A stretch of 55,800 nucleotides of DNA, filler included, from Dugesia japonica (lineage: Eukaryota), in assembly GCA_001938525.1 (NCBI GenBank). It is 5 parts of 5 records of this genome, joined end to end, with 100 filler letters (N's around TTAATTAATTAA, not from the genome) between each part and the next. Parts side by side here need not be neighbours in the genome. Positions count along the whole stretch, not along the records: positions 18,426 to 31,940 come from MQRL01596677.1; 4 more parts are not named here. The stretch is one strand, 5' to 3'. The position numbers and the translations under genes were made by a program. The notes beneath the pieces are model-generated. The model saw only the letters and a program-made list of their open reading frames with translations, was not told the origin of the DNA and did not search any database. Position 1 is the first letter of the stretch. The number at the start of each line of letters is the position of its first letter. Of the stretch, positions 3,840-48,913 are shown piece by piece.

Positions 3840-5214
3840 TGTTGAGCTGGAACACCAACATTAGACGAGGAACTAAAGAAATAAAGAAGGGTGAAAATAT
3901 ATAAGATAAAGAAGGATATGCACCAAAATCGATGATCTGGACCAAAATATTATTAAGAAAAGCATTATTATTATTATTATGGTTATTATTATTATGTAGT
4001 TATCATTATTATAATTATCATGGTGCGTTTTAAAAATTATCGAAAAAATGAAAATTAGGCGTAGGGGACCCAAATTTAGTGGGACGAAACTGAAAGTTAT
4101 ATGTAACAAAAGGCAATTATAGAATAAATAATAAAAATAATATACGCTAATATAATAAATTATTAAAGAGGCCTCTGTGACCCAATTTCATTATTATAAT
4201 AACGCTGTATCGCGTTTAATATTAATAATTATTATAATTACGACTGGTCCAATCATCACTGTCCTTGTCTAGCTGATAAAATAACACGAAAATAATCAGC
4301 AGTTTAGCTGACTCATTCCCTGCTAGATAAGGACTTGGCCTAACAACTAACCAATTCGTCACATAGGTCATATGAGGTGATGACCAAGATTTGTCAGAAT
4401 GCAAAAGTATGAGTTCGTGTGCAGAGGTACTGAGATATGCACACTGAATTCGAGCCTACAACAGCCAATCAGGAGAACAAACATCAGCATCGCATTGGCC
4501 GGTCAATTGAGGGCACAACAATCGCTTGTTGTTACAATGAATAAAAAGAGATGAAGAGAAAAATGATGGCCATTAATTCAAAACAAAAAATTTTTTTTAA
4601 AATAAATTAAAATTGATCTTAGCGACCATTTATAACGAAATAAAAGAAATTTTTAAAGAAAAAATTATCAAACTNNNNNNNNNAACTACCGATTAGAAGC
4701 GAAAAGAAGATAATTGCGGATAAACTTACCAGGAGAAGATAATCATAATTCAGAGTAAAATTTAATTTTATTTTTATTTGCAGTGATAATTATTATCCTG
4801 GGGGAGTGCCATTCACAGTGATTGTTTTCCAATTAGTGATCGGGCTCCTACTAAAAGCAAATATGTTATGTGGGTTAGGTTAAATTCGGGAATGAGGTTG
4901 CAGATGAGGAAGGAGATGAGATTTAATTTATGCCAACGTTAGAGAGCAATATCCAGAGTAAAAATAGGAGTTGTGAGGTCGATAGATGAGAGAAGAGTAA
5001 TTGAAAAAAAGGAAAATTCTGTTAGGATTTGGAAAGAAAATATTGCTGAGCCCGATCAGTCAGAGGAGGACGATCATTAATGCCCCATAGGGATGACTTT
5101 CGAATTTTTGTTTGTTACGATTGGTAGTCGGATTATTAGGCATGTTGTACAGGTTCCAATTTAATTTTAATTTGTTTTATTGTTTTAATTAAAAGTTTTA
5201 CGTTGAATAAACAC

Positions 5215-5495
5215 TTGATAATTTTGATTTTTATTATGTTATCAGTAATATTATTATTATTAATAGGAAATTTAAGATTCGAATTTTAAATAATGCAGTG
5301 CCTAATTTCAGTTATTTTATAGAAGTGTTTAGATTGACTATTTGATAATTTTGATTATTTTTTATGTTATCGTTAATATTACTATTATCCATAGGAGATT
5401 TAAGATTCGATTATTAACATTATTATTGCTGATATGAGATTTAGTATTCGATTTTAAATAATGCACTGCCTAATCTAAATTATTTTATGGAATTG
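5215..5495. repeat. Imperfect tandem duplication (about 125-150 bp, 2 copies)
   Basis: TTGATAATTTTGATT...TTTAAGATTCGA...TTTTAAATAATGCA.TGCCTAAT occurs twice. Confidence 0.75.
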
Positions 5496-5972
5496 ACTGT
5501 AGTTGATCACTAGCCAAATGTTCACTTCAAATTATGCATAAACAAGGCATAGTTTCGATCATTTTCTTAAGCCGATGTTATTCGACCATCCATGTAATGT
5601 TAGCTGTAAATGAAAGAATTTACTCGGATTATTACCTCCACGTTTTTAGTATTAATATTGGTATTACTGAGCAGTTCCGGGAAGTATGACATAAATCAGA
5701 GTAAATCAACGGGATGTCCAACGATGAGATCGAAGTTGTTTTTGCCCTAGACTGATAGGGAATTTCGTCATAGAGCTTGACCATGGCGAGAACGAGAAAA
5801 GATGTTTGCGATGAGGGAACATCTTTTCTGGTTCACGTCATGAAGCGGTGGAAAAGTTATAATAGGCCACAGGCCGAAGAAACGTTTTATTAATTCAAAT
5901 TTTGCCTTGTTACTTATAAATCTTATTTAATGTTGTAATGAAAATAGTTGATAAATTTATTTACCAGAAATA

Positions 5973-6403
5973 ATGACCGAATATTACCAGCCACATATCC
6001 CATTGGTACTCACCAATGATGCAGAGGAAGGAACGTTCTGGTTCCCTGGAGGAATACCGTAGAACTATTGGAGGAGCAGCGTGGTAAATATGAGAAAGAA
6101 AAGGCGGAGACGCTCGGCAAAGGAGGGCAGTTGGTAGCCTAATTCCGAGTGATCAAGCAGCGGCTGATTGACACCCAAAGTTCTCTTCAACGATGCCAGC
6201 AGGAGAACCAACAACTTCGCCAGGAAATGCAGTTGATCCAGGAAGGGGTAGAAAAATTAATTTAGTGCCACACCGAGAGTGGTGCACTATTGGGACACAT
6301 CAAAGATAAGCTCCTATTGAAGAACCCCGAGGGTGTTGCAAGGAGTTCCAACTCCCCAATTCCTCTCATTGTAAAAGTGGAGTCGTTGGCAAGGATTGAA
6401 TAA
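5973..6403 (+). pseudogene. Cassette ORF (coiled coil) in element A
   Basis: Acceptor TTTATTTACCAG (5967), ATG at 5973, degenerate frame ..IKQRLIDTQSSLQRCQQENQQLRQEMQLIQEGVEKL..; stop overlaps AATAAA at 6402. Confidence 0.55.
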
Positions 6404-6715
6404 TAAATGTTTACCTGTGACCGAATTGTGTTTTATTTGTTTCATTTTAAGCGATTAAACTCCAGTGATATGTACGTCACTTGTTTACTAAATAAATTGA
6501 GTCTATCGAGGTAGCAAGGAGTGGAATAGGTACTATCTAGCCACTAGTTTTGAATAAGACCTTGGTCACTGTGGAAAATTTATTCAGTGGGGTAAATCAA
6601 CATATAGCTTAGTTTTCTTTATAAATTGTACTAATTTACATCGCATTGCTTATATCTCATATTGTCCTTATGATTAATAACATGAATGTCAAATGAATAA
6701 TATCTAACATTTCAG

Positions 6716-7038
6716 TGAACAATTCAAACGACACCAAGGTACCACGAGGTAATGGAATCGACGCGCCGCACCGGTGGAAAGAGGAACGGCGATAACTAAA
6801 AAATGAGATTCTGCGGCTGAAAGGACAGGTCCAGAAGTCGGCGGCCAAGTACAACCAAATCAAAGAGAAGGAGCTATCCCTTCAACTCGCCAACAGGTTA
6901 ATGGCTGATGTCATTAAGACATACGCCGATAGAGAGAGTTCGATGTTTGTGACCTTGCGAACTCTCTGGTTGAACTATCGAGCGCCCGATCAAACGAACG
7001 ATCCGCCAGAACCAACAGTGGATTTGGACGCTGATTGA
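6716..7038 (+). pseudogene. Cassette ORF of the DRE/YADRESS coiled-coil family
   Basis: CTAAC branch point plus ATTTCAG acceptor (6715); frame ..LQLANRLMADVIKTYADRESSMFVTLRTLW.. with one internal stop; AATAAA at 7056; homologs at 27871 (minus) and 37011. Confidence 0.7.
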
Positions 7039-8286
7039 GGAGCTTGTATGTATAAAATAAATGTTATAAATTGTGACTGAAGCGTTATTATTTCTTGTTA
7101 CGAATTATTGGGAGGATAAAGTTTCTAAGAAGTGGAGCGGTGGTAATCCGACCTTTTCTTACTGAGTACGTGAGAGTTTTGTTGTCAGGGTTCACGGATC
7201 GATGAATAAGACGCGATATCGCAAAGTCGCGCTGGACCCGAGGAAAGAGAGGGGCACATCACAGAGGTGATGCAAACGCTTGTGGTTTTTATGTTGCCCC
7301 TAGATCAGATGACAAATTCTTAAAATGATTGAGAATGAAGAGAAATTTTTTTTTTTGTTAAAAATAAAAATCCTAAAAACCCAACAGTATATTAGATTTT
7401 AGACTAGAGACTTTTCTATTCGCATTCTGAACCAAAAGCTTTATATTAGTTTTATACTAATTAATATTAAAAAAAATTACTATCAATATAAATAAATTAA
7501 ATTTTTATGAAATATTGTAGAACACAGAAACAAGTTGTATTAAAGATTTTGTAAAAAAAATCTATTTTGAAAAGTTATATTGAAATCAAAATAATTGCAA
7601 AAAATTTTAAACAATAAAATTGATGAAAATAATTTTAATTTGGAAAATATATCTACTTGGTGTTTTTATTATAAAATTATCTTACAAGAAAAACATGTTT
7701 CAAATTAATAGTTAATAGTATTTGGACGATTTTCTAACATTCATTATATTAACAACTATAATAGTAATAATAATATTAATAATAATTTATATTATTTTGC
7801 ATTTTTTCATCAAAAATAAATAAAAAGGTAAAAGCGATAATTAAAATCATAAATGACAGTGTGATGTAATCAAATTGTGTAATTATTATGATAACTGAAA
7901 ACTGTAAACGAAATTCAACGCCACATGTTGAAAGAACAAAGATGCAACATGATAAATTATTGAGGTCGATATCAATTTTTGATTTTTGGCATAATTTTTT
8001 GTCAAGAAATAATCTTATTTAATAGGTTGTGAATATTAAATGAAACATGTTAATTTGATTTGTTAAATTTATTGGTTAATTGTTTATGATTTTATTTAGA
8101 TTTATAATTTTTTATAAATATTTCTTTATCGGTTATCATTTAAATAATAAAAATTACCTTTAATTAGATATTCCGATTCTCTAAAATCCATAGTTAAATT
8201 ATTAGTAAAAAATGAAATTTCGTTAAATTAAATTTGATTTTTAATTGAATATTTAAACAAACTAAAAATTGAATGTATTTTAAAAT

Positions 8287-8773: not shown

Positions 8774-9534
8774 AATTAATCAAAGGTTAAATCGAAAACA
8801 GATATTTATAAACATTAACAAATGATTGGTCAATTTTAAAAGTTGATATTTAGTTGCAAAATTTAGAAGCATCGAATAATCACTAAAGGTGGGCAGACGG
8901 GGGGTAACCGTTTCCATGGCAACCGTATCAAACCTAGGTTTGTACAGCACAATATAAGTATGCGAAATATTTGGATTCTAAATTGAAACCATTAGGAATT
9001 CTAATTTTGAATGTAAGGACAGTTTTGAGTTGGTAAATTTTATCTCAAATTCTGTTTTAAGTAATAATGATGAGTTTGTGGTATCTTGATGTTTCTAGCT
9101 TATTCACTAATGTTACTTTTTGCTGGAAATAATAGATCTTTTTTGTGATTTATTGGAGAATAATTTGAGTGATCATTCTGAATTGAATATAGCTGCCTTT
9201 CGTGAATTGTTGACTTATGCAATGGCTAATGTTTCGTTTCTGTTTAACAATGAATGGTATAAACAGATTGATGGAATGGCTATGGGTTCTGACTTTGGCT
9301 CCGACATTAGCATCAATTTTCTTGAAATAGCTTGTAGAACGAATGAACTGGTATTCTTTGAGTAAGCCTCTTACTTACAAAAGATATGTTGACGATGTTT
9401 TACTTATTTTTGGTAATCGTAAACATATTTTGCCTTTCCAGAGTTGTATGAATTCGTTACATCCCAATATTAGATTTACTGTAGAGGAGGAAAGAAATGA
9501 TATTTTGCCTTTTTTGGATATTTTAATAGAAAGG
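8774..9534 (+). mobile_element. Second copy of the X-box segment plus Penelope RT fragment, truncated by contig end
   Basis: Duplicate of 1-761. Confidence 0.9.
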
Positions 9535-9634: not shown

Positions 9635-10327
9635 TTTAGAAAAACAAGTATTAAATCATCAAAACCATGGTCTCTATGTGGTCCTTTGCAACTAGATTTC
9701 ATGGATCATCCAAAGTATCTTTTTCCAGGTGTTAATCCTCCGATTCGATTAAAAAGAGCAAACCCCAGAATGTGTTTAGAATCTCAAATTGATGAACCAA
9801 AACATTAATTATTGGATGCAAAACTAATGGGAAGAAGAGCTCGAGTAAATTCATCAGTACTAACAGATCATTAAATTGGATTAACAAAACAAAATGCTAT
9901 TTATCCAATAAAAACCAAGGAAATTGTATCATTTTCATCATTTTATAAGGAGCAAATCTATGGAGATCATCGATTGCCAAACTTTATTCTAGTTTCATTT
10001 CAAGATGGCGAACGATATAAAGGAAGCTATAAAATACGAAGCTCACTTTTCGATAATTTCAATGTTACATCATTAACTCTATCAAGTAACGGCGAGTACA
10101 GAGTGACTTACACACAAGACTTTAAAAATGATGATAATAGTACATCAAATATGCAATCAATAGTTAGAAATTTGGGATATCTTAACAAGAATATGAATTG
10201 TGGAATAACAATTGAAGATTTTAAAACCAAATATTCATTTTTAACTTTTGTGCTAGCTCCAGATTTTGATATTAATCAGAGTCAATTACCGATGCTGGGA
10301 AATATTAAGCTAGATGTAAAATTTGAA
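9635..10327 (+). mobile_element. Polinton/adintovirus major capsid (hexon-like double jelly-roll) gene, degenerate C-terminal half
   Basis: SKPWSLCGPLQLDFMDHPKYLFPGV..IRLKR; YKGSYK...FDNFNVTSLTLSSNG; CGITIEDF..YSFLTFVLAPD..GNIKLDVKF. Confidence 0.8.
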
Positions 10328-11572
10328 ATCAAAGTGGTCAAGTCGAGGGAGTCGGCAACGGTTAATTCGGATCGACTACTGAGATGGATCGACGGTGAAC
10401 ATCAGTAATTAAAATGAAGTCGAGTAAATCATGACAGGGATTGTGCAAGGTCAAAGAAATTGAAATTGACTTGTGTTTTTCGTGGCGTGAAAAACATTGA
10501 GTAAACGTCAGAGAAAAGTCGAGTGAAATGTGGGGAGAGATTCAGAAAGTCAGGGTAAAATAAAACTGATTTTTGTTTTACTTTCCATCAACTAAAAGAG
10601 ATAATTTCAAATGAGGGTAGAAGTTCGGATAGTCAGAGAAACAACAAACTGATACTCGAATTTCTGTTCTTGTGAAATAACGAGTAATTATCAAGGAGAT
10701 AAATGAGATGAGATTGAATGAGTCGGTTGGAAGCAATTAGAAAATAAAGAAAATAACAAATTGATTTTGAATTGCTTTAGACAGTAGTATCAACATCAAA
10801 GGATCGGTGATATAAATCGAATTACAGGTAATTTTAATATTGACAAAGAAATAGATGTGACAAACTCTGAGATACTAAGAAACATGATGAAATCAAAGAA
10901 AAAATAGTGTTATGCAAGAAATCAAAGCAAAAGTCAATGATAATAAAATGATAATGAATGCGGAATTCAGATAAAATGCTCAGCAAAGNAANGTGGGAAA
11001 GGAATAAANTTAAATTTGTAAAATTAAAGGTGTGCATAACGAATTAAGAGAGTAAAGTAACATTAATAAATCGGATAATTGTGCAGTGTGTAAAAATGAG
11101 ACTTAAATATGTGTATATGTTAGTTACAAATAGAAGTATAATAAAGTAAACGATAACAAGTGTTAGTAAATTGATAAAGTGTGTAATGAGAACTAATGAA
11201 GTGTGTATTGAGAGTTAACTAAGTATGTGTTATGAACTAACAAAGTATGTATTGTGAAGTAATAGAGTATATTGTGTGTGTAATAAATAGTGTGAGTATG
11301 AATTAAAAAGCTAATGCAAATTACTAATAAATGCATAATAAAGTGATATAATTGGAGTGTATCATATTTTTCTTTCAAATTATTCATAAAATCAAACGAT
11401 CAAGAACTCAATCAGATAATTCACCATTGATATTTCAACTGACAGATACAATCTACAAAATACGACAAAGGATCAGAAATATTATTCGAGTAAAAAATCA
11501 CATCCATCCAAGACACAGAGATCAGCATCGCTCAATCCTCAAAGCAAAACCCCATACGATAAATCAATCTTA

Positions 11573-24400: not shown

Positions 24401-26621
24401 AACCAAGAAATATAATTGCAAACATGAAATATAATTTGCAAACTGTTACTAGAACTACAGTACAAAAAGGATGACTAGAAAAGCACGAAGAGTTCTGCCA
24501 TAAAAGCAAAAAAAGAAGCAGGAACATTTGTTAATAAGAAAAAGAGAAGTGAAAGAAAAAAAATGGGGAAATGAACCAGGCGAAAAATTTAAATGCGCGT
24601 AAAACTGTTGCAGAAAAACGACAAACATGAATAATATTGAAACGCGGAACTAGGAATCACAGATAATAATTCTTGACGTAGACCATCGTAAGATCGAATG
24701 ATATTAAGACCTCCTTTACAAGGGCGGTGATCTACAGTTAATATTCTATACCTGGAGAACTCCTTGAGCACAATACCTCTCTTTGGATGTAGGGTTCACC
24801 ACCACTGTTACATTCGATTAGGGTTCATTTTAGAAAAAATTACAAATTACAAAACTACCTGGAACTCTAATGATTCACGATTATTGTTATCTGGTATATC
24901 GACATTGAAAACAGTTCCCAAATCGACACTTGACTCATATGAACTTGTAGTATAATTACTGTTTAATGATTCACATGAATCAGAGATATCCGAACTGGAG
25001 TCGGATTCATCTGAATTCTCGTCGCTGTTTAATTTCTCAAATTTTTCTTTTTTCTCACACGTCTCCTCATTGGAATAGATTTTCCGGTATAATTCCAACA
25101 ATTCATCCATTGGTATTTCAGCGTCTTCTTTCAAGTGATCGATTTCCAATTTATTTTGCTCTGCATCATGAATATCTTCATATTTCTCTTGTTCAATCAT
25201 AGTCTCTTCCCAATCATCGCTAGCTTCAGCATCATCCAGCGGTATTTTTATTTCAACATCATCATCATCATTATTATTATTAATCGAAGGATCTTTATTA
25301 CTATGATTTTCTGAATTAATTTGCTCTTCTTCAACGTTACACTTGGAAATACCATTTTCATTATATTCAATCTTTACATCTCTCTCGTTTTCATTATTAT
25401 TTACTTCAGTAACGGTTTTAAAATAATCCAATGGTAACTCTTTAAGAATATCTTCTAATGACATATCGTTTTGCTTTTGTAATGCCTGAATTTCTTCCTC
25501 TATATTATAATCAACTTCCATTTCTTCTCTGTCTATTGTTTCTTCATCATCAGTCCATTCATCTTTTGCCTAAATTATAAATTATTCATACTTTATTCTT
25601 CTATTATCTAACAACAAATAATACCTGAAACTCAGGATCTTCTTCTGTTGATGTTTCGTTGTCAGCTGATGTGACTAATTTCAGATCTTCTGTCAACCAT
25701 TCAGTATATTTCTGTGTGGTTTCAATAACTTTCCCCAGATGGTCATTGATTGCTTCTTGGCGTCTAGCATCTAATCGAAATTTTTGTTTAGCTAATACAA
25801 TCTGCAAAAAATAACAATTAAAAGATTGAATTGTACTTTAAATCAAACCTTTTGCATTTGTTTCCACCATTCCTTGATAATTTTCGATACATTTAGACAG
25901 TGCTTTTTAGCTTTTATCGTTTCTTCTTTATTATTTTTTAACATTTGGGCTTCTTTTTCTTTAACATATTTATATGCAGCAACAGCCAACTAAATAATTC
26001 AAATTAATACAATATTTAACATGTTTATAAAAAAACTTTTTTCGCATCGACTTTTCGAATTTGCTTATTTGTAGACATATTATCTTGTAACCATTTCATT
26101 TCTTTAATTAATAAATCCCAATGAAAAATAGGTCTAATTGGGTCGGATTTTTTATTAATCATCTTTGATGACCAAAGATTATTTTTCTGAAGTTCTTCTA
26201 CTCTATTTAAAATACAACGTTCAGCAACAACACGATTGATTAATTCATCACTGTCAATATATTCTGGGTCAGAATCATCAGAATCATCAATAAAATATTT
26301 CTTTGAAATTTCAAAAGCATCATCAGATTTAGTATTGGAAATATCTCTTTTGTCATCATCAATTTGTAATTTCTTATAAAAAATAAATACATGGCCACTT
26401 TGTAAATAATTTAATTCGTGTATTGAAGTTTGGTATTTTTTATTAGAATCGTCTATTTCATTATTTATCACTGAAATAATTTCCTTTTTATATTTTGCTG
26501 AACAGGAAATTGCTGAAGCTGTTCGGCGTGGTATTTTGAAATTGTTATCACAAATTTTCCAATTATTTATAGAATTTGACGTTAAACTACTTCTAGTACG
26601 GGTGGAAATACATTCTTCCAT
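18426..26621 (-). CDS. SRCAP: SRCAP/Domino/p400 (SWR1-family) chromatin-remodelling ATPase, 3'-truncated by contig end
   Basis: Exons 26621-26037, 25989-25849, 25801-25625, 25569-24859, 22026-21529, (N gap)-21282, 19417-19225, 19181-18838, 18794-18426, with GT-AG borders in compatible phase. HSA (HWDLLIKEMKWL), LREYQHVGLDW, LADEMGLGKTIQ, ILDE, HREFNEWF, LHKVLRPFILRR, MQLRKVCNHPNLF. Confidence 0.95.
22345..23032. mobile_element. MITE in SRCAP intron with nested pogo/Tigger-type end (from 22492)
   Basis: TIRs CCCGTCAAAATAGCCCAAGACAAAATAG / CTATTTTGTATTGGGCCATTTTGACGGG; internal TACAGTCAACCCTCGTTATACCGCC. Confidence 0.65.
23498..23850 (+). mobile_element. Mariner transposase N-terminal remnant (intronic)
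   Basis: MGDIFEQRSCIKFCVKNKI; GRPPT; NRHLTVREFAEIVGISTGSV. Confidence 0.85.
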
Positions 26622-27547
26622 TAACTAAATTATTTTAAAATTATAATTCAATAAGTAGAAAATAAATTCTCAAATAAAATCAAATTAAAATTTACAGAAC
26701 GTACTTAGTGAATTATATAATTAATAAAAAATATCTAAAAATTTAAAGTATTAATAATTTTCAAATTTTAAAACAAATAACTACGATGGATAATGATGAA
26801 TATAGACTTTCTGTTACAATTAATAATAATTTAAATATTAAAATTACACACTTGAGTAATAACTCATAAATTGTGTGATAATTTCAAATATAAAAGGCGA
26901 AACGAGCTCAAAATAATTTTAATTAATTTACAGGTTTTTAAACATTGCCATATACAATCTGACAAATTATTTGTTGAACAATATATGAATACACAATGTG
27001 ATAAGAGATTTGAAAATTACTTATCTATAAATTATTTTAAAATGCTGATGAAGAAATATTTTTGTGATTAAATTATATGAAAATAAATATTTCAAAAACC
27101 GATTAAGTTAACTTTTTTATATAATGTCGTTTGAAATGCGAATGGTACAAATAATTCTTAACATTTGAAAATTAACCCTTCTGTGGTACCCAGGTAACAC
27201 AAGTATTTTATATTATAATTCATATTTTTTAAATAAAAAGAAAAAATCGATGATCAAAACTTTTTCTAACGGTGAATCATATTTTATTATTCTCAATAAT
27301 TACTTGAACTTGATGTAATGATTTATTGATGGTAATTTAATTTGCTAATTAGTTTTATTTGAAACTTCATAGAAAGTATTGTGCAAAAATTTTTTTTAAA
27401 AAATTTTAATTTTCTGATTAGATATTTTGGTAAGTAAATAGTAAAATTTTATTTTGATAGCAATTAAACACTTATAAACAAATAATTATATATGTACTAA
27501 ATTTAATTACTAGTGTTTTTATTATTTATGAAAATGGGTTATGCATG

Positions 27548-28830
27548 TGTTGAGCCTCGAGCTTTTCTACCCGAATAGGTAAAAATTTGACGATACCTAG
27601 TGAATCGTTCATCTGCTCCGGCTCACACGAGTTTTTGCGATAACCCATCTTTAGAAACTCGTCTTGCTAGTGATTTGCTCGATACTGGCATGATTTCCTA
27701 GATTAAAGACAAAAACAAACGATGGCAAATTATACATGTATTTATATTAATTACATGTTACGGGGATTCAAACATCTTTTCCTCTGTTATCCCACAGCCC
27801 GACACTATTACAACCTTTTTCACCTTTTTTTTACAACCTCCTTCCACGAGGTCTGTACGTTAGACAGGATGGACGACTCCCTGTCTGCATAGCTGTTCAC
27901 GATCTCTGCTAGCATTTTGTTGTTGTGGATGAGTGTAAGCTACCACTGTTTGCTCACATTGACTTACTTTTCAATATCAAAACCTTCTTGTAAATGGCGT
28001 TCTCATCTTGCATCTATTTAAGCTCTCGTCATCGCTGTATTAATTTGCTCGTCAGGTTACTTTTTTGGTGAGCAACTCCTCTCGACTAAGTCGACTTTTT
28101 TCATTGACATATTGAATAATAAGGTTTAGATATTTGGTTTTATCTCACATTTATCGACTAAGTTTAATTTATGCTTATCGATATTAAATTGATATAACAT
28201 AAAAGAAAAAAATTGAATTTGATTTTCTCTTTTTAATAAGATCAGTATTCTACTAAAACATGTATTACTATGAGCACATTATTAATAGTCTTCATTTAAA
28301 CTTCAGGCTTCTGCGGCTCTCAGAGTATGGAACCAAGGAGATGTTTGAAACGACCACCTCTCCAGCGGCAAAGATTGCTTAGCATTTTTGATAGAAGTTA
28401 GCTTGGACACTTTAAAGTAAATAATATATCTAAAAAATATATACAGATCTCGTCACACGTCACAAGTTAAGAAAGAAAACCATTATGTGCATGCATTTCC
28501 AGTAGCTAATGACATTATTTTTTGACTTCACTAAGTTATTGGAGAACTGATCCAATTTTCAGATATAGTTTCCCAGAGCTGTCTCCAGACAGTTTTATAT
28601 GGCTGCCCAATTGGTTTGATAAAGCTTTGGCTAGTCGCACGTCTTTTTGCAAGCATTGTTTTATTTATTTGTCAATGTCAAAAGAGGATTTTCTTGAATT
28701 TTCAATATCCACAGAGTCGAAGTTTGCATTATCGTAATTGAAAACCAATCGTTGGAATGTTCTTTATATAATGGAATTCTTTTTAAGAGTCTTAATTATT
28801 TTCTGATTCATTTCCGATATCAATAATTTA
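27548..28830 (-). mobile_element. Element C: 3' part of a cassette-bearing TGTTG...CAACA element (5' end not found)
   Basis: Ends GGCTCAACA on the minus strand; last cassette (about 28110-27750) encodes NNKMLAEIVNSYADRESSILSNVQTSW; further degenerate short frames at 28300-28410 and 28500-28815. Confidence 0.65.
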
Positions 28831-30079: not shown

Positions 30080-30580
30080 CGATATATACAAAAGAGAGGT
30101 AAAGAAAAGAAGCAAAATGCAAAATTATTATTGTAGCTGGCTATACTGACAGCTTTTTTTTAGAATTGATAGATATAAATGTAGAAAAACTTAACGGATT
30201 AATGAAAAAAGATGAATTACTAGATACATCTAATTACAGTATAGATCATCCACTATATAGTAGTCATATGAATTCCGTCATTAGAAAGTTCAAAGACGAA
30301 AATAAGGGAGAAAAGTATTTAGAATGGATATTTTTAAGATCAAAGTGCTACAGCCTGCTGAGTTAAAAGAAACATTGAAAGCAAAAAATGTAACACTTAA
30401 AAATAGCAGTATCAACCATCAGACCTATATTGATTGTTATGATAATCATGANAAATTAGCAGTCGAATAATTTAGAATAGTTTCGAAAAATCATCAATTG
30501 TTTAGAACAAATTCAAAGAAATTAGCATTTAAGTAACAGCGATGATAACAGGTACTGAATAGGAAAAAATGAAAGTGTAC
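30080..30580 (+). mobile_element. Polinton pPolB C-terminal remnant
   Basis: IVAGYTDSFF, LLDTSNYSIDHPLYS, KFKDE, FLRSKCYS. Confidence 0.9.
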
Positions 30581-32274: not shown

Positions 32275-34130
32275 ATCATGTTTAACAACGAAAGTAATTT
32301 GTGATAAGTAATTGCACAAATGTCATCAGATCTTGAAATGAGATTTTTCAAGATTTAACATGCGAGAGATAATTTTACCAGATACTTTGGTAGAAAAACA
32401 TTTTAAAATAATTGGAGAAATTAAGAATGCAAAAATTTTAGTTTGGAATTCATGTTGAGTTCAAAAGAGATCATGAAATAAAAATTTGCCATTTATCTAC
32501 TTAGTGAAAGGTTTTTTGAAGAGGGAATTAGAGTATTAAATGAGAAGATTGTTGAAAGAAGCGAATTAGAAAGTAGCTGTACTTTTAGTAGGATATTAGA
32601 AATAAATTTCAACTTGACTAAAATAAGCAAAATAAGTTATATTCCAAAGTTAGAAAATCTTGTAATGAAACAAGCAATTGTTAATGTTAAAAACAGTGAT
32701 AATAAATGCTTCATATATAGTATTCTCGCAATTCTTAAACGAGATTTAATAGACAAAAAGCAAAGGAATCGGGTAGCACAATATAACGAGTTTATGTCAG
32801 ATTTTGTATTTGATGAAAATGATATGCCCTTGAAATTTGTGAATATTCCCAAATTTAAAAAAAAACACTGGATTAGCTATTAATGTTCTATCATGGAATC
32901 AGAACTTAAATGAAAATGATGAAGACGAGGTTGTCATGAAACATGCAAACTTAGATATAATTCACAAATCAAAAGTCGAGGGTAGTAAGAAAATTAATTT
33001 ATTATTATTTGAAGAGTGAGATCAATTTCATTACACTGCTGTGGTAAATTTGAATAGATTGATGAACAGAGATATTAATAAGAATGGTGTTCAAATTCAA
33101 TCAATCTGGTGCAAAAATTGCCTTAATGAATTCTGGGATAAAACATCTTTCAAGACTCTTGAACAAATTTTGTGAGAAGATACAAACGGGAACCACTCTT
33201 TCTAAAATGCCCACAGAAAAAGAATTAATATTTACAGATTATTCAAAAACTATGACTCCTTCGTATGTTATTTATGCTGATTTCAAATCAGTGCTAGAGA
33301 AGGATCCCGAACATTACCAAAAACATCTGCCTATATCAGCAAGACTTTGATTAGTAAATAATTTCACTAACGAATATCAATACCATCAATTTATAGGATC
33401 AGACTGTGTTTACAATTTCTTGACAATAATTGAAGAAATTACCTAGAGCATTATATACTTGTTGGGGTGAAACACCCGGTTTTAGAAGAAAATCAAGACC
33501 AGGGGCTCCAAATAAGAAAATAATAAAGTAAAGGACCAAAATAAAATTAATTAAGACTAATCACCACATGGTTAAAACTTGCAAGTATTACAATTAATAA
33601 AATCGGAAGAAAAGGCAAAAGGAATAAATAGAATATCGGATAGATGGAATATCATCTTTAATCAATGATATTAATTAAAAGAAAAATAATTTATTATAAA
33701 ATAAACAAAGAAATTATTATTGAAAATAATGGTTAATTATCAGGAAAATATTAATTAATTTTAGACAAAAAAGATTTAAAATTAGACAAAAATCTGTTTT
33801 TCAAAGATATCTCCGCTCAGAAAAATCACAGAGACTTTTAGTAAGAAAAACTGGATAGAGAAGGCAACTGGTCAATAGAATTTTGTAACAGGAAAGTTCT
33901 ACCATCACCAGGAGAGTTTTGGGAAGGATTTAAAAAATGGACCAATGAGGGGCCAGAAATGAAACATAAAACAAAGCCCTGAAAAACACAATGTGTCCTA
34001 AAAATAGGCACCAATAATATAGCAGAAAAGTTTCAAAACTTTTAGAATTTTTGACAAAACCCCAATCAGTAACAAGAAACAGAAAAAATAGAAGGTCAAT
34101 GAAAAGTGTGCCGAGTTGTATCCAGAAAGG

Positions 34131-34170
34131 TATATAAACCCTGCGAAATTTAGAAGAAATTCATTCATTT
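34131..34170 (+). promoter_or_regulatory. TATA box plus initiator of element B
   Basis: TATATAAA at 34131, TCATTC 30 nt downstream, three CCAAT boxes upstream (about 33942, 34011, 34062), GTGAGT donor at 34448. Confidence 0.55.
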
Positions 34171-36191
34171 TTACTAATTGTTGTACGTAATACCGTATTG
34201 TACTATTGTAATTACTAGCGTTAGAAAATTTATTCAAGGAGAATCTCGTTAATCAATTTTTCTTAACCCACATTGTAATACCACGATTTCTACTAAATTA
34301 ATTTATCAGTGTCTTTACTGAATTTCTAGAGGAGAAATATTTCATTAGTTAAGAAAGGAAATTTGTGGCAGAAATCAACAGCTATTTTCAACTGAAATCG
34401 ACTCCTGTTTGAAGATTAAACCGTTGCAGAATAAATTGTGCTTATAAGTGAGTAAGAATTTTAATGTTAATCGTATAAAATATTTAATGGAAATTGTAAT
34501 GATATTTTAATAAACAATTAATCCATAAATTTATTTTTGTTTAGAAAAGAATTTTAAGTTGAGTTTATATTGTTACTAATGCCATATACATTCCCACATT
34601 TCGCTAGTAAATAATGAAAAATTTCGTAACTCTACTCATGAGGTATGCAGAAGTCGACAGCTGATAGCCGTTATCTCACGCTGTGCATAACAATACATTA
34701 TGTCTGAATCAAAACTCCCTCTGTATTAGTTTTATTTTTTAGCATCTGCCACAGGCGATCAATTAATTACTGACATAAATTGTCAGGCCAAGTATGGAAC
34801 ACACCAACTTGACCACAAAGCACTAAAATTACACTTCACACTGCAAACTCACCATAAGGATGACACACCCACTCGTTTCAGGCAAATAAATGACACACAA
34901 TACAACCTTATTACTACCATGAACAAGATAAATTTTTTGCCTGATTATTGCCGACACTAAACAACAATGAAAAAAAACTACTACAGAGAGGGTATGGATT
35001 TTATTTTCATGTCAAGATCTTGAATCATTGGAGATTAAGTTCATTACAGCGACCTAATTCGAATTGTTAGAGTATCGCATGGTGGTGTATTATTATCTTA
35101 TCTGGTGGTTGGAACTAACATAGAACAAGTTATCCTGTTAATAACCGCTCAATGACTGATAGACTTATCGTGATTTAATCTTAACGCAGCGGTTAAGACT
35201 TCCAGAATAACTATTATAGTTAATATTATACGGAGAAAATTATGATAAATAAATTATTAATATTATTAAGGATATTCGTTATTATTATTATCAGCATTAC
35301 TATTATAGTTGATTATTATTATTAGATTTAAGAGTATTATTACTATCTCTAGTATTATGATGGTCAATATTATTGCTAGTATTATTATCGCTATTCCTAC
35401 TGATATTATTATTATTATTAGCTCTACTGTTACTATTAGTATTATTAGTTCCACCAACATTATTAATATTATTAATTATATTATTAATTTTGTTATTATT
35501 CTTATTATTAATCCACCACCATCAGTTTTATTATCACCATCATCATTAGTAACTTTAGATGAGTGAATAGTAATATTATTATAACTATGGTTAGGTTAAT
35601 ATTCCTCAACTTAGTTGCCTCTAAAATAACAGCCAAGATAAGCATTTTCTCATTCTTTCTTATTATTAGGGGTCGAGTAGTTGAATCCTGTTGGTTTTTC
35701 CTTTAAGCTAATGGTGGAAAATTTTATCGCTAATTTTTGAATAAACCCAATCTAATAATAACCCATGAGTGTGGCTTTATCACCAAATGGGAAGCTACTA
35801 TCTTCTTCTAATATTCGCTATAGCAATTTTAATAAAGGATTTCACAATGACGTCAAATCGGGTGGGATTCATGCATTAACTTTATTTAGATCATGCCGAC
35901 AGAACTAAGAATGGCCTTACGTACTATTTCGAAGCAACCCAAAACAGCGCGGCTTAAGCAACTTATCGGGCATTAATTATTTCCGCACATAGTAGAGCAT
36001 CCTGGCGAAACGGACCTACAGTGTTTCGCCGAGATGTTCCCGTTAGTACATCAAGTGGATATTGACGCGGATTCTTGATGGTCATGACGTCGTTCAGTGT
36101 GTTGCATTTAATAAACCTTTATATTAATCTTGTTCTTAATCAACTGCTGAATATTTACTATTGATGTTAACTGTTGTTACTTTTAGCTACA

Positions 36192-36595
36192 ATGAAATTC
36201 AAATCGGAGATATTGCTTGACCGACGAACCGGTAGTACCATCTTTAATAGATATAAGAACCCATATAATAGAAATGTTGGCGTTCAAATTGGACTCCTGG
36301 TGTAGTAGAGGAGAAAAGAAATTGGGACGCCACTGAGCGTCAAGCTTTCTATCAGTGGACAGGTCCCAACCGATTGCGCGTAGTATACCATGCGGTCCCA
36401 ACTTCACAGGTAGGCGCCAATGGAGAGCCACAGATAATCAGAGAATGGTATGAGGGTCCTTCTGTGGTCGACGTTACTACGGAGCACTTCCCCCCATTCT
36501 CGTACTTAAGTGCTTTCGTTCAAAACAATCTGTGGGGTATAAGAAATACTGAAGAAGGTGATAATAACGAATCTGCCAATAATGGTTTTGCTTGA
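36192..36595 (+). pseudogene. Cassette ORF in element B (unknown product)
   Basis: Acceptor TTACTTTTAG (36186), ATG at 36192, frameshifted, AATAAA at 36627. Confidence 0.5.
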
Positions 36596-36793
36596 ATAGT
36601 TGACTTGGCGACTTGTTGTAATTAGCAATAAAATTATCCTGGTTATAACTTGTGGTTAAATGGCGTCTATTTATCATCTTGCTTTGTTTTTCAACATCAT
36701 AACGATATAAAAAAATCTTTTAAATAATAAANNNNNNNNNNNNNNNNNNNNNNNNNNNNNNNNNNNNNNNNNNNNNNNNNNNNNNNNNNNNNN

Positions 36794-37112
36794 TACTAAA
36801 AAAAGTAAGAGAATCGAGCAGAGACCAGGAGATGACCTGGGATTTATATCGTCTCACGGAACGACAATGGGAGACCGATACCGCCACGGCTGAACGCAAG
36901 GTGCAAAGAAATAAAACTAAGTTTAGAAAAAAGCAGAGGCCTTTCATGCCCAAGAAAGACTCTGGAAAGGTCAAATCGAGTCATTTTCAGAGATCATCCG
37001 GTCTCTCCATGACCGTGAAAATAAACTGGTATCCGATATTTTGACCTTAAAATAGGCCATACCTCTCGAGTCATTGATGATCGATAAGGGCACGCAAACT
37101 TCACGACCCTGA
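36794..37112 (+). pseudogene. Cassette ORF of the DRE family in element B
   Basis: After a frameshift in the A run at about 36930: ..FSEIIRSLHDRENKLVSDILTL..; AATAAA at 37138. Confidence 0.6.
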
Positions 37113-37259
37113 TCTGTTATGAGTTTTTAGTTTTAAAAATAAATGACTTTTTGATTTATATTTATCTTGCTTTCCAGTCGTTTATGTTGATTTCGAGAGT
37201 TTTTCTTTTATTTAAATATTAATAGTGATCGGACCATCTTCTAATTTTAATTTTTTTAG

Positions 37260-37620
37260 TGCCACGAATCCAGCTACCCACCAGTTTACGTAGGTGTCAT
37301 CGTCTGGTTTAAAAGTTGCTTCTAGAACGCCACATTAAGGGCAGAACGAAAGATCGTTACTGCGACACTTGACCCAGAGAAATTGCCTTATTAATAAACT
37401 TGACTTAATCGTCAAAAAGCAGAGTGAAATAGCCAAGCAGACCAAACAACTATTCACGCATAGAATCGAATTCTTAGAACAATATATTGCGGATTTGGCT
37501 AACCGGCTAGAACAAGAGACGTGGACTAACTGGAATAGCGAAGATGATGAAGCCGCTTTTGGCTTCTCATCTGAAGAGCCTACCCATTGGTTAAACCCGG
37601 GTACTCTCAATTTCATGTGA
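37260..37620 (+). pseudogene. Last cassette ORF in element B (coiled coil plus acidic/aromatic tail)
   Basis: CTAAT plus TTTTTTTAG acceptor (37259); stop at 37620; AATAAA at 37630. Confidence 0.5.
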
Positions 37621-40164
37621 TTAATTAGTAATAAATCTTTGTATAGATTCATATTCATTTAATTTACAAACAACTATAAAGAGAAAATAGTGAATCCAAA
37701 ACAAAGGTATACGGTTTATACCCCAAATGAATGTTGGGTGTCAACCACGCTATACCGAAAATCTAATCAGGACATTAGATAAATTCTTGAAGGGGTCCCC
37801 TAAGGGCTGATTTTTCCCCAGCCGCCATTTTTTCTAACACCAACTCNNNNNNNNNNNNNNNNNNNTTACTATCAAGAAAATAGCAAAGAAAAGATGAAAA
37901 TAACAACAGAAGAAGATATTAAATTCAAAAAAACAACTATTTGTCATTTATGTAAGAAAAACATCATTAAATCGGTTCGATACCACGATCATTTCACTGA
38001 GAAATACATGGATGCCGCATGTTCAACTTATAATCTCAGTAGCAAAGTTCGACATGAATTACCTATAGTATTTCATAATCGTAGAGATTATGATTTGCGC
38101 CATATATTAAAGTATGAACTCAGTCAATTTTCTCACTGGAATATCTCATTTTTACCAACAACAAGCGTGAAATCTTCATGTTTGATTGTACACTTGAATA
38201 AAGTAACTATAAAGTTTATTAGTTCTTGTCAGTTTATCAATAGCTCATTGGACGCGGCTGTTAAAACAAATAAAACAACTCCATTAACCAGAGTTTAATG
38301 ATAACAGAATTATCAAATCAAAGGAAATTTTCCCATATGACCTCGCTACAAGCCTGGCCGTGTTGAAAGAAACCGAATGTATGCCACCAATATGGAAATA
38401 TGTCAATGAAGATTCGTATCAGAAGGCTCTGGGAATGTGGAATATTACTGGATGCAAGAATTTACTGGACTACATGATAATTTATCTAAAACTGCTAGAT
38501 AAATTATCATGTATTCCTGCTAGCTGACTTTTTTCAAGAATTTCGAGAGAAGTCTCTAGTACATAACGAATTGGAACCATTATGATTCTTTTGAATTCCA
38601 GGGATGAGCTNGGCATCAGCATTTATGACCCTAAAGGATCCTATTGAATTGCTTACAGACAATAATATGTTCTCATTTTTCGAGGGAGGCATCAGAGGTA
38701 GACTGTGTGGTTCAATGTGAAATCGAACGAAAACATTGATCTTTTGTTCATCGATATAAATAACTTATACGGATGGACATTAAGTCAGAAATTATCATAT
38801 ATGGATTTTCAATGGATTCATACCAGATTAGAGCAAATATTGGACGATTGTATCGTATGGCTACACAGTAGAATTTGACATGGAAATCTCGGACGAGTTA
38901 CATGGTTATTTAAGTGATTTGTCTGTTGGACCCAAACATCAGAGCCCACCAGGGAGTAAGATAAAGAAGCTGTTATTAACACACTATACGAAATTGAACT
39001 ATGTAGTACATTGACAATTACTACAACTGAACATGCAACTTGGTGTTAGGATTTTTAAAATACATAGAGCTCTGATGTTTACACATTATATTTTCAAGAA
39101 GTATATAGACGAAAATACTGAGCTAAGATCTCAGAGTACATCGGATTTGGATAAGAATTATTATAAGCTTTTGAACAATAGCCTCTACGAAAAACATTAG
39201 AAAATCTAAAGAAACTAATGAATCTCAGANTGTGCAATTCAGCTAAGAAGCTTATTACTAACGTTTTAAAGCCAAGCTTTAGGAAAACAATCAAAATAGA
39301 TCAAACTTTAATTGCGGTATTGATAGACAAGGATACAGTTTGTCTCAATCGCCCTTGCTTTATATTGGTCAGACAGTATTGGACTTGAGTAAGCTAAGAA
39401 TGTATCAGGTCTAATACATAGAGCTGGAGAAATATCGGAAAGAGAGAAAATGTACTATTAATATAGTGGTGGGAGATACTGACAGCTTTTTCCTGGAAGT
39501 GAAAGACATTAAATTGGAAAGATTACTAGAACTGATGGTTCAGGATGAGTTGATGAACACTGCAAACTATAATGCATAAGATTAGATTTATAAAAAGTGG
39601 AATTCAGTGGTAGGAAAATTCAAAGACGAAAGCAAGGGTACGAGATACAAGGAATTCATTTTTCTGAGATCAAAATGTTACAGTCTGCTTAGCGAAAAGA
39701 CCAGCATGAAGGCTAATGGAGTAACATTAAAAGATACCGACTTAATACTACAGTCGTATCTAGATTTTTACAACAACAATCAAGCGGTCTCAGTAAACCA
39801 ATTTAGGAAACCAATAGGTACAAGAAACCACCAATTGTACAGCTTTAAATGACCAAAAATAGCATTGACCAATACTGACGATAAGAGAGTATGGACACAC
39901 AAAAACACCAGTGTTCCATATGTGCAAATGTAGTTTGACCGCAAAAAATAAGACTTTGGATCAACAAAAGAATGTACAGGTAATAAATTTATTTGAACTT
40001 ATTAGAGATTTATTTTATTATTTAGTAATCAAAGGAAGAATCAAGTCACATGAAGAAACTTATGAAACTCATTGTATTTGAACTGTTTATTTTGAACTGA
40101 CTTTGTCCAACTGTTTGTAATTTATGTAATAAAGTTTGCCATTATGATTTATGTTTTTTTTATG

Positions 40165-42757: not shown

Positions 42758-43705
42758 ATGGCTCCGGGCAAACCAGAAGCTGCTTTAGCTAAAGCGAAAG
42801 GTTAATTTGAATAAATTCCATTTTTTAAATTGAAAAATATGTTTTAAATTTAATAAATACTTTAATATATACATTTTAATAGATTTAATAAATGTTTCGA
42901 AACTAAATACGGCAATAGAAATTTTAAGTGAATGTATGAAAGCGCAGAAAAAACAAAAAGCATGGGTTAAAACCCACGAAGANGTTATGATGCTTTTGGC
43001 ACAATTATGTGTTGATAATAAAAAAAGTCTTCAGTTTAAAGAAATTATTCATCAGTATAAAAACATGACTTTTCAGGTTTATTAGTGAAATAATTATTCA
43101 TAAAGACTAATAATTTTCTAATAGATGGTTCCTAAATCGCTAGAGGATGTTGTTAAGTATTATTTATCTCTTGCAAAGCAACGAACAGAAGAAGCAAGAG
43201 ATCAAGCTAAAATACTTGTTCCGGATATTGATGATTTAGATAATCCGGATACTCCAGAAAATCTGATGTTATCCGCAATTAATGCCGATAGCGAACAAGA
43301 ACGTCAAGATAGAGCAATTTTGACTCCATGGTTAAAATTTTTGTGGGAATCNTATNGACAGTGTATGGAATTATTGAGAAATAATGTGAAATTCGAACGA
43401 CTTTATCATGATATTGCTCAAGAAACTTTTGAATTCTGTCAGAAATATGATCGAAAAGCTGAATTTCGTAAATTATCGGAAATATTAAGAAATCACATGT
43501 CGAAATTTCAACAGAGTTCTAATACAGTTGGAAATACTCCTCAAGCTCAAACACCAGAAACTTGGGTTTTGCATTTAGAAACTCGTCTGAAAATGTTGGA
43601 TTTTGCATTGAAATTCGAATTATACAACGAAGCGTTCAAAGCAGTCGAAGACGTTTGGAATTTACTAAATACGTCGAATATATCTGCTAAACCGAGAATT
43701 CTAGC
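42758..43705 (+). CDS. EIF3A: Eukaryotic translation initiation factor 3 subunit A, 5' part
   Basis: Exons 42758-42800, 42883-43076, 43125-43705; KPEAALAKA, LCVD..K, QYKN, IDDLDNPDTPE, LTPWLKFLWE, LLRNN..ERLYHDIA, RKAEFRKL, EAFKAVED. Confidence 0.95.
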
Positions 43706-43805
43706 NNNNNNNNNNNNNNNNNNNNNNNNNNNNNNNNNNNNNNNNNNNNTTAATTAATTAANNNNNNNNNNNNNNNNNNNNNNNNNNNNNNNNNNNNNNN
43801 NNNNN

Positions 43806-44857: not shown

Positions 44858-45210
44858 TTACACAGCTCTGAGAAAATTATACGGAACAATGACCACAAGT
44901 TTCTTTGCTGAATTACAAAGTTTTAAATTAATTCGCTTTTTCAAATTTTCAACAGTCTTACCATAAAGACTGTTGCTTATTAACTTACAACAATTTTTAT
45001 CTAACTCATTTTGACTTTCCGACCATAATGCAGTGTGTCCATCTACATAAGCTTCAAAGATATAATCTTGATTACATTTTACAATACTATGAATTTTAGT
45101 CACTTCAACCCCTATTTGTAATACAATTCAAGCAATCTCCATTGTATTACATAGTTTTCTTAAGGTGATTTGTTAATAATAATTTTTTAATTTTTGTACA
45201 TGGCAGCATT
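44858..45210 (-). mobile_element. Polinton pPolB remnant (motif B region)
   Basis: KKLLLTNHLK.NYV, CKLISNSLYGKTVENLKKR. Confidence 0.9.
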
Positions 45211-47137: not shown

Positions 47138-48913
47138 CACATATCCCCTAATTAACACTGAAGACAGGTTCCTTAGAAAACTGTGCAAATCGAAAACAAA
47201 CTAAAATGTACATAATTTAGTCATTTATTTCAACGTAAAATAAAAATAAATATATCTTAAAAAACAAAAATAACGGTCTATTCATAAAATGACAAAATTA
47301 TAAAGACATATTTATGTAATTCATTTCACATATAGAAAAAAGAAAAATAAATTAAAAAACTTAACCGAAAATTTAATTACTGTTATCACTTTCATCGACT
47401 ATTATTCTTTTCTTCCAAACTAATATGGTATCACTTTCATCACTCGATAGTATTTGATGCGATTTAAGTTCGATGTTAGATGAATTAAAAACAATTTCAG
47501 ATCGGCGAGCCTTGGTAATGAAATCCGTAATTAACAATCGTGTTTAATTTTTGGTAAAATCTGAATTAAGCGTTTATTAATGTATCGCTGAAATGGGAAA
47601 CATTGTTCAACATTCCGATCATTTTCTAATTTTCGTCGCAATGTCAAGTCCTTCACAGATGATTTTTGCTGTGAAAAAAACTGGTTCAGACTCCACTTCA
47701 CAAAGATAACTGTCCCGATCATTTGTCTCATAATAATGTAAATTGAATAATCCTCATCTAATTCTTTATCTTCCATTAATTCTATAATATCTGCCTCAGC
47801 AAAATCCTCAAAACTTTCTCCTCTCATTGTATGCGCCATCTCCATAATCTGAGAATATTCATGCTATAATGGTAATCTAGAACGCTCAGCTTCAACTGCA
47901 TCTGGCCATAATTTCTTCAACCAGTTATTGACCGTTGATTGCTTAATCTCTATAACACACCAACATGCTTAACAAAATTTAACACAAGCATCCATAATTT
48001 CGAGAGATTCATCATTTCACATTTGTTCTAAAATATATGTGAAACTTAATTTGATGTACAACTTGCACATCTTCGTGTTGTAAATCGTGAGGATTGCTGG
48101 GTTGATTACCAATTTAAAGAATGGTTTTAAAAGGCAAACTATTTCAACTTAAATACCTTTGACGTGTGAGATAAAAAAATATGAAAGCATTCATGGAAAG
48201 GTGTGGCAGTAACACAGGCCTTATTATTAGCCATCCAATAAATGGGAAGGTTATTGAGGTTTATTCCTTTGAAATTTTTTGATTTCTTAATAACCAATGG
48301 TTTTATTATGCGATCGCCTGAAGCGCTGATGCAGAAAAGAACCTTTATACAACTTTTCACTGCTTTATGATCACCAGCTAATTTATGAGCATTAGATATA
48401 TAGGTTTTTTCTGGCATTTCTATTCCAAAAAACCCAAATTCATCAACATTAAAGGTCTGGTTTGGAGTGTACGAATTAACGGCTATAATTTCAGCAGATT
48501 TGACTGGATATTGTTGCTCTCCATCTGAATCAGCAGATGTTTCCTGAGCTTTGTAATTGTATTGGTATCTATTGTAATCCGCTTTTAAGTGGTGTCTTCT
48601 AGCCATATCATTAATGCATTTTCCATATTTTCCATTGTCACATCTCATACGTATGTAGCTGTTCTCATACTTGTAGAAGATCAAGCTGCTACACTTTTTC
48701 TAATGGAGTATTCATACTTTTCTTTTTCTCCTTATAATTATTTATTAGTAAATATGAAATTTTCCAAATAGAAAAACAACAAACTGGAATTCAGAATAGA
48801 ACAGAATTAAAAAATGACTGCAGGAATTTTTAGTATTTTTAAAATCCCATATTTTAAAAACTGTGTAAAAGTTAAATCATGTAAATGAAGTATCACATGA
48901 AACGGGATAGGTG
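47138..48913 (-). mobile_element. pogo/Tigger DNA transposon (degenerate)
   Basis: YTPNQTFNVDEFG..MPEKTYI..KPLVI..W.ANNKA; ends CACATATCCC / GGGATAGGTG flanked by TA. Confidence 0.85.

What the first reader, a model, noticed from the sequence alone, without database searches (positions are those of the whole stretch)
27750..28110. Conserved unknown coiled-coil protein (DRE/YADRESS motif) shared by three elements
Seen: A (6716-7038) NRLMADVIKTYADRESSMFVTLRTLW; C (minus) NKMLAEIVNSYADRESSILSNVQTSW; B (36794-37112) IESFSEIIRSLHDRENKLVSDILTL. Across YADRESS (6922-6942 vs 27891-27871), 6 of 7 codons differ synonymously (tac/tat gcc/gca gat/gac aga/agg gag/gag agt/tcg tcg/tcc). It is the last or second-last cassette in each element. 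Inference: a real gene of about 100 aa under past purifying selection and a family marker; function unknown. The ORF track shows none of these three motif-bearing frames.
Basis: partly seen in the sequence, partly recalled or inferred. Interest (0 to 1): 0.78.

Follow-up and report, generated by a model that had tools for sequence, protein, structure and literature searches.

The report
Zipper micro-protein carried by jumping elements
Two of the three stretches are broken copies of a real, unnamed family of roughly 100-residue proteins predicted to pair into a two-stranded zipper; they sit in abundant repeats that are likely the long ends of large retrotransposons, and a short conserved tail may let the protein grip the host's SUMO tags, which is untested.

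Summary
The gene family is real; the third copy is doubtful. A (6709-7038) and C (about 28110-27826, minus) match a profile of 17 outside proteins at 5e-17 and 1.5e-10. B scores 2.4 and shares only the last 22 helix residues. All three window copies are broken. Eighteen intact-looking relatives (63-115 aa, 28-89% identical) keep an invariant YADRE. No Pfam, PHROG, PDB or viral-fold match was found. The protein is one long helix predicted to form a parallel homodimer (0.59, best control 0.00). Several near-invariant residues face outward, and 16 of 18 relatives end in a hydrophobic-acidic tail resembling a SUMO-binding motif. B is a 4.4-kb insertion starting TG inside a Maverick-like polymerase gene; A is also a high-copy repeat. 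Best reading: an accessory adaptor protein in micro-gene arrays of mobile elements, likely solo LTRs of large Ty3/gypsy elements. The carrier class and the function are inferred. The scan noted similar things on other pieces of this genome (e1-9268182, e1-9225201).

The parts
6709..7038 (+). Copy A of the YADRE gene; stop at 6793-6795 that other copies lack; ends in the acidic tail TVDLDAD
   Evidence: 68% identical over 109 aa to P0002; profile iE 5.4e-17; other copies read a sense codon at the stop
6700..6716 (+). Splice-acceptor-like site (CTAAC...TTTCAG) at the start of cassette A
   Evidence: seen in the sequence; not picked up by my regular expression; no spliced read at this place, so inferred
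7056..7061 (+). AATAAA poly(A)-type signal behind gene A
7183..7307 (+). Terminal ~125 bp of element A, TG...CA, far more abundant than the rest; other copies diverge just behind it
   Evidence: summed contig depth 126,000-181,000 against 200-21,500 in the other bins; loose ends
3840..7307 (+). Element A (left end tentative): high-copy repeat with several small decayed ORF cassettes
   Evidence: 5450-7400 covered by many diverged copies; left-end motif like B's, weak over 140 bp (6 of 200 shuffles reach the score); no target-site duplication seen
27826..28110 (-). Copy C of the YADRE gene; several stops and frameshifts upstream of the 38-codon open part 27939-27826; no acidic tail in frame
   Evidence: profile iE 1.5e-10; keeps 9 of the 10 invariant columns only if R60->K is excused and E23 is not counted: L55, N59, YADRE, T82 kept
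36796..37112 (+). Cassette B ('HDRE' type): possible distant sister gene; frame break near 36926, stop at 37053, tail ...DKGTQTSRP
   Evidence: weak scores; motif bin very deep
33460..37865 (+). Element B: ~4.4-kb insertion beginning TGTTGG inside a Maverick-like DNA polymerase gene; right end hidden in a 19-N gap; carries about four acceptor-ORF-AATAAA cassettes and no pol or transposase ORF seen
   Evidence: empty-site joints 33456/33458 to 37866 in other copies; another copy begins at 33460 with 716 unrelated bases before it; cassette signals; polymerase label recalled from motifs, not found by Pfam

Best explanation
A and C are broken copies of a real ~100-residue protein family carried in high-copy mobile repeats, likely the long terminal repeats of large Ty3/gypsy retroelements, and the intact protein is predicted to be a parallel two-stranded coiled coil that likely acts as an adaptor, binding a host partner on its conserved outer face and possibly SUMO through two acidic tails. 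Shown: the family, selection, the broken state of the copies, high copy number, and that B is a discrete TG-started insertion. Predicted: one helix (residues 9-86) and an in-register homodimer with a/d core 17, 20, 24, 27 ... 76, 80. Inferred: (i) each micro-gene is a separate last exon with its own acceptor and poly(A) signal, spliced to an upstream leader like accessory genes of complex retroviruses; (ii) near-invariant residues outside the core (L53, Q57, R60, D64, K67, D71, T82) form a partner-binding surface; (iii) the tail (VVDLD, TVDLD, TIELD types) is a SUMO-interacting motif shown twice by the dimer, tethering that partner to SUMOylated chromatin and so helping the element's transcription or blunting its silencing. 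Odds by step: real gene family 0.95; dimeric coiled coil 0.85; accessory gene of a mobile element 0.85; carrier is a solo LTR 0.55; tail binds SUMO 0.35; role against silencing 0.2.
For: Family: 18 proteins among 5,427 candidates; ten invariant columns; core identity 28-89%. Selection: pN/pS 0.44. Fold: AF2 helix 9-86, mean pLDDT 87; hydrophobic share d 0.79, a 0.57, f 0.05, with invariant Asn at a; P0002 and A lack exactly one heptad. Dimer: ipSAE 0.59, best of 3 controls 0.00, runs agree in at least 92% of contacts, partner pLDDT at least 79; the mark was reached by 21 of 30 solved homodimers and 0 of 23 single chains in microbes, by 17 of 29 and 0 of 30 in eukaryotes. Outer-face conservation 0.89-1.0 at b, c and f positions. 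Tail in 16 of 18 proteins at three distances from YADRE (21, 26, 31 residues), so it survives linker change; SIMs are a four-residue hydrophobic core with acidic neighbours (PMC12751080, passages read). Carrier: B is an insertion with a sharp TG start; A is high-copy and ends ...CA. Burro elements are giant Ty3/gypsy elements with accessory ORFs and a SUMO-like domain (PMC6431247, section 7 read). SMEDWI-2 represses LTR elements at chromatin level in planarians (PMC8532177, passages). SUMO links piRNA targeting to silencing in flies and worms (titles and abstract starts only).
Against: No pol, primer-binding site, paired LTR or target-site duplication was seen for any element; B's right end is in an N gap, and the apparent TACT repeat is not a duplication (table 5c). 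B, the only element with a proven insertion site, carries the doubtful member; A's left end and both ends of C are unproven. The 18 relatives come from 0.5-2.2-kb contigs with no names or context, so that they lie in such elements is assumed. Only 7 of 18 tails (VVDL) meet the three-hydrophobic rule strictly; the others have Thr or Ser first, P0019 lacks the tail, and the motif is loose and common by chance. SUMO binding was not modelled. Coiled coils can pass the dimer test by likeness to solved ones (animals 7 of 16; 1 of 7 eukaryote cases without a solved relative), and only two copies were tried. RNA is sparse: depth about 10-11 on one mate strand and 2-3 on the other in one run, under 1 in another, none of the 178 reads at least 99% like this copy, no splice joint, strand not settled.
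Confidence: 0.45

Rival explanations
1. The gene is an accessory gene of a different kind of mobile element: a non-autonomous TG...CA DNA transposon (Ginger-like, recalled), a Penelope-like element with extra coiled-coil ORFs (Terminon-like), or an endogenous DNA virus. The protein would again be a dimeric adaptor.
For: No LTR pair, PBS or pol is linked to any copy. A Penelope-type RT fragment (label recalled from motifs) lies at 338-818 on A's contig, followed by other coiled-coil ORFs. TG...CA ends are not unique to LTRs.
Against: No terminal inverted repeat stood out between B's two ends or A's two ends. B has a sharp TG start and no poly(A) or RT piece. The Maverick-like polymerase is B's target, not its carrier.
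Confidence: 0.25
2. The carrier is as in the best reading, but the protein works as a structural or RNA-handling factor (a Rev/CERV-like export factor, a Gag-binding scaffold or a decoy zipper), and the tail binds something other than SUMO.
For: The N-terminal half is basic (net charge +1 to +5 in 17 of 18). An LTR retrotransposon is known to make a spliced nuclear export factor, CERV of Cer1 (PMC10309623, abstract read). Most tails miss the strict SIM rule. B-type cassettes end instead in DKGTQT, like a dynein light chain LC8 site (motif recalled).
Against: No arginine-rich RNA-binding stretch or bZIP basic region is conserved; no Pfam family passes its cut-off. The conserved surface is in the C-terminal half.
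Confidence: 0.25
3. It is a host gene family whose fragments were captured by repeats; the window copies are passive pseudogenes and the element gains nothing.
For: All window copies are broken; the intact relatives have no context.
Against: Other copies of element A lack the stop, and the motif bins are deeper than their flanks in both A and B, as expected if many element subfamilies keep the coding block. No named host protein was found among 1.84 billion representatives or 5.8 billion clusters.
Confidence: 0.05

Closest known systems
Burro / GYPSM1 giant Ty3/gypsy retrotransposons of planarians (PMC6431247, section 7 read; Grohme et al. 2018 not held)
   Same: Abundant in an AT-rich genome, multi-kb terminal repeats implied (25 kb internal, over 30 kb total), accessory ORFs aimed at host ubiquitin-type systems.
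   Different: The section describes accessory domains in or before the polyprotein, not micro-genes in the LTR. No link of A, B or C to gag-pol was shown.
Accessory and regulatory proteins of complex retroviruses (Sag, Rem, Nef, Vpx; PMC12789967, passages read) and CERV of C. elegans Cer1 (PMC10309623, abstract read)
   Same: Small proteins from spliced messages, mostly downstream of pol/env, that act on host machinery.
   Different: No sequence likeness; here several cassettes each carry their own poly(A) signal; splicing and function are unshown.
SUMO-interacting motifs (PMC12751080, passages read)
   Same: Short hydrophobic core followed by acidic residues in a flexible tail.
   Different: Only 7 of 18 meet the usual three-hydrophobic core; binding untested.
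Leucine-zipper-type parallel dimers (GCN4, BAP31; weak PDB hits, E 0.06-0.7)
   Same: Leu at d, Asn at a, in-register dimer.
   Different: No basic DNA-binding region; hits cover only the generic N-terminal coil, not the YADRE block.

Membership tests
Solo LTR of a Ty3/gypsy retrotransposon | Begins TG and ends CA | tested here: inconclusive
   B starts TG at a proven left end, right end in an N gap; A ends CA near 7307, left end tentative; C has no ends
Solo LTR of a Ty3/gypsy retrotransposon | 4-6 bp target-site duplication | tested here: inconclusive
   Hidden in the gap for B; none seen around 3840/7307 for A
Solo LTR of a Ty3/gypsy retrotransposon | Same sequence found as a pair flanking gag-pol, with PBS and PPT | not testable with these tools
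   No genome held; pattern and protein scans of viral and metagenome contigs found nothing
Solo LTR of a Ty3/gypsy retrotransposon | Dispersed, multi-copy, discrete insertion without own replication genes | tested here: met
   Empty sites and a second copy for B; many diverged copies of A; no pol or transposase ORF seen inside
Burro/GYPSM1 | Sequence identity to Burro LTRs; giant Gag-Env-Pol polyprotein | not testable with these tools
TIR DNA transposon | Terminal inverted repeats | tested here: not met
   No inverted match between left and right ends of B or of A passed the shuffle filter; B's last bases are hidden
Parallel two-stranded coiled coil | Continuous heptad with hydrophobic a/d, Asn at a, in-register self-pairing | tested here: met
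   (prediction only)
bZIP | Basic region before the zipper; Pfam bZIP match | tested here: not met
   No bZIP family among the 25 of 46 weak families shown, none at cut-off for P0004; no conserved basic region
SUMO-interacting motif | Four-residue core with at least three V/I/L and acidic flank in a disordered stretch | tested here: inconclusive
   7 of 18 strict, 16 of 18 loose; tail is outside the helix, low pLDDT
SUMO-interacting motif | Binds the SUMO groove | not tested
   No SUMO sequence was available from the session's tools
YADRE family (this report): is B a member? | L55, N59, R60, YADRE, T82 and acidic tail | tested here: not met
   B keeps DRE and T82 only, and has another tail; likeness over columns 62-83 suggests a distant sister

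The most novel reading that the evidence does not exclude
Large planarian retroelements carry, inside their terminal repeats, swappable arrays of micro-genes, each with its own acceptor and poly(A) signal. One of them encodes a dimeric zipper with twin SUMO-binding tails that intercepts SUMO-dependent piRNA silencing: an element-encoded anti-silencing protein in an animal, with a sister family (B) that uses an LC8-type tail instead.
Probability: 0.15. Interest if true: 0.85.

Novelty: new variant of a known kind. Interest (0 to 1): 0.52.

Why it matters
Accessory proteins are well known for complex retroviruses but few are characterised for animal retrotransposons. A conserved 100-residue family with a defined dimer, a defined outer binding face and a short tail gives a small, easily made probe for how these elements persist under PIWI control in planarian stem cells. 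If the repeats are solo LTRs, many dispersed copies would each carry a set of such genes. If the SUMO link fails, it remains a new repeat-borne protein family useful for annotation.

Tried and rejected
No genome for this window. Pfam on 23 ORFs and on the 18 members: no family at cut-off for the YADRE proteins, only generic coiled-coil hits. PHROGs: 4 single weak hits. PDB sequences: best E 0.017, generic coils. Foldseek against viral models: 0 at E<=0.001, and a single helix is uninformative; PDB fold searches were not run for that reason. ESM Atlas: generic coiled-coil clusters only. P0006, one of the 6 hits, was dropped as a repetitive false hit without YADRE. Viral and metagenome contig scans by protein and by end motif: none. 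Search for intact B-type proteins: none among 5 candidates, a weak search with a 43-aa piece. Longer or fused forms were not searched with the word-index tool; the HMMER search of 1.84 billion representatives has no length limit and showed none. No indexed RNA holder is on record for A. Searches timed out and one search failed; redone in 55 and 71. Seven paper searches showed no description of this family or of micro-genes in planarian LTRs; Grohme et al. 2018 with its supplements and Repbase entries could not be seen and may describe these repeats.

Full report
Setting. The window is an AT-rich (about 18-43% GC per kb) draft of a eukaryote, with an intron-split SNF2 helicase gene and many repeat fragments. 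It is five contigs joined by stuffers, and A, C and B lie on three different ones. Earlier notes of this scan call the genome planarian; I did not test that. No genome is held.

Observation. The three peptides are there and the codon list is right. A and C are homologous beyond chance, with saturated silent sites and pN/pS 0.44, or 0.58 without the motif. All three copies are broken: A by one stop that other copies lack, C by several stops and frameshifts, B by a frame break and a stop. B is the weak link. It is not significant on the full profile, lacks L55, N59, R60, Y69 and A70, and stands out only for columns 62-83 chosen afterwards (0 of 300 shuffles; 41 of 300 for columns 53-83). Its motif is nonetheless a very abundant sequence in its own right, so it is likely a separate, perhaps distantly related family.

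The family. A's open part found one intact-looking 112-aa relative. A profile over 1.84 billion representatives gave 6 hits, of which 5 carry YADRE. A second profile gave 18 proteins of 63-115 aa: 12 from ENA, 5 from Logan, 1 from JGI and Logan, on contigs of 0.5-2.2 kb; none carries a name. Ten columns are invariant. Nothing known matches: Pfam, PHROGs, PDB sequences, viral folds, ESM Atlas.

Anatomy. AlphaFold gives one helix, residues 9-86 of P0004. The heptad is continuous from 17 to 87, with Leu-rich d positions, an invariant Asn at a, and a one-heptad deletion in the A subfamily. Two copies fold as a parallel in-register dimer on that register: 0.59 against a best control of 0.00, contacts agreeing at 92% or more, pLDDT 79 or more. 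That mark was reached by 21 of 30 solved homodimers and 0 of 23 single chains in microbes, and by 17 of 29 and 0 of 30 in eukaryotes; a pass may come from likeness to solved coils. Conservation is not confined to the core: L53, Q57, R60, D64, K67, D71 and T82 sit at b, c or f positions and are 89-100% conserved, which points to a partner-binding face. After a linker of three different lengths, 16 of 18 proteins, and copy A, end in a hydrophobic-acidic tail. Seven are VVDLD and meet the usual SIM rule (PMC12751080, passages); the rest are looser. C has no such tail in frame.

The carrier. B is a discrete insertion of about 4.4 kb: contigs of other polymerase copies join 33456-33458 to 37866, and another copy starts at 33460 with unrelated DNA before it. 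It begins TG; its right end and any duplication are hidden in 19 N. It holds several acceptor-ORF-AATAAA cassettes and no replication gene that I could see. A is a high-copy repeat whose copies end at a CA near 7307; a motif like B's left end lies at 3840 (weak). No terminal inverted repeats stood out. This fits solo LTRs of large Ty3/gypsy elements, a class known to be giant and rich in accessory ORFs in planarians (PMC6431247, section 7), but no link to gag-pol was shown. An earlier AI note reached the same reading for a 4.4-kb element on another piece, and another described a similar zipper gene; these are leads, not support, and I could not check that the latter is this family.

Expression. 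RNA reads from diverged copies cover A's motif thinly in one of two runs (depth about 10-11 plus 2-3 by mate strand); none of 178 reads is 99% like this copy, there is no splice joint, and the strand is unsettled. B's motif has depth 4-8 per mate strand in two runs.

Mechanism. I commit to an accessory adaptor: a small dimer made from a spliced message, binding a host protein along its outer face and, most likely among the tails' possible partners, SUMO. SUMO is tied to piRNA-guided silencing in flies and worms (search listing only), and SMEDWI-2 represses LTR elements in planarians (PMC8532177, passages), which would give such a protein a purpose. Every step after the dimer is inference. Rivals are another carrier class (0.25), another job for the protein such as RNA export in the manner of CERV (PMC10309623, abstract; 0.25), and passive capture of a host gene (0.05).

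Verdict. A new protein family in a known kind of role, in an unusual micro-gene layout. Seven paper searches found no description, but the primary planarian genome paper and repeat libraries were out of reach. PMC11410931 (passages) and PMC12789967 (passages) were used for background only. Interest 0.52; 0.85 if the anti-silencing reading (probability 0.15) holds.

Noticed in passing
window 9579, 18370, 31985, 43750: N+TTAATTAATTAA+N stuffers join separate contigs; neighbours across them are not real neighbours.
   Followed up: partly
window 1-761 and 8774-9534: A 100% identical 761-bp direct repeat holding a Penelope-type RT fragment (label recalled) at both ends of the first contig: assembly artefact or very recent duplication.
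   Followed up: no
window 11420-15830 (+): Decayed large Gag-like frame with three CCHC knuckles (Pfam 7.5e-17) followed by a twice-repeated unknown helical region (13153-13723 vs 14056-14678); three knuckles are also reported for Burro Gag. RT fragments at 17688-18097 and 31446-30963.
   Followed up: no
window 37089-37106 (+): Cassette B ends in DKGTQT, which resembles an LC8 dynein light chain site (motif recalled, untested).
   Followed up: no
   Followed up: partly
window 35831-37635 (+): In B the distance from one cassette's AATAAA to the next acceptor is 76-161 bases (36110>36186, 37138>37259, 35831>35992), reminiscent of operon processing by trans-splicing (recalled); no read evidence.
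   Followed up: no
window 7183-7307 (+): This terminal piece is about 6 to several hundred times deeper than the rest of A: a shared R/U5-like end of many subfamilies or a separate tiny element; it is the best-covered part in RNA.
   Followed up: partly
window 5959-6407, 36186-36632, 37259-37635 (+); 897-1244, 2190-3167 (+): Further small decayed ORFs, several coiled-coil, without a Pfam family at cut-off where scanned; no cross-match between A, B and C cassettes other than the DRE block.
   Followed up: partly
window 27433-27396 (-) vs 37753-37792 (+): A 40-base AT-rich match between DNA downstream of C and B's right end (0 of 200 shuffles, 72 comparisons) may mark C's end; weak.
   Followed up: partly
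window 18370-26624 (-), 42834-43757 (+), 9875-10408 (+), 30093-30476 (+), 44885-45069 (-), 48139-48699 (-): Host SNF2-family helicase gene (Pfam 2e-37; Domino/SWR1 label recalled), an eIF3a-like exon and Maverick capsid- and polymerase-like fragments (labels recalled), and a DDE_1 transposase piece.
   Followed up: no
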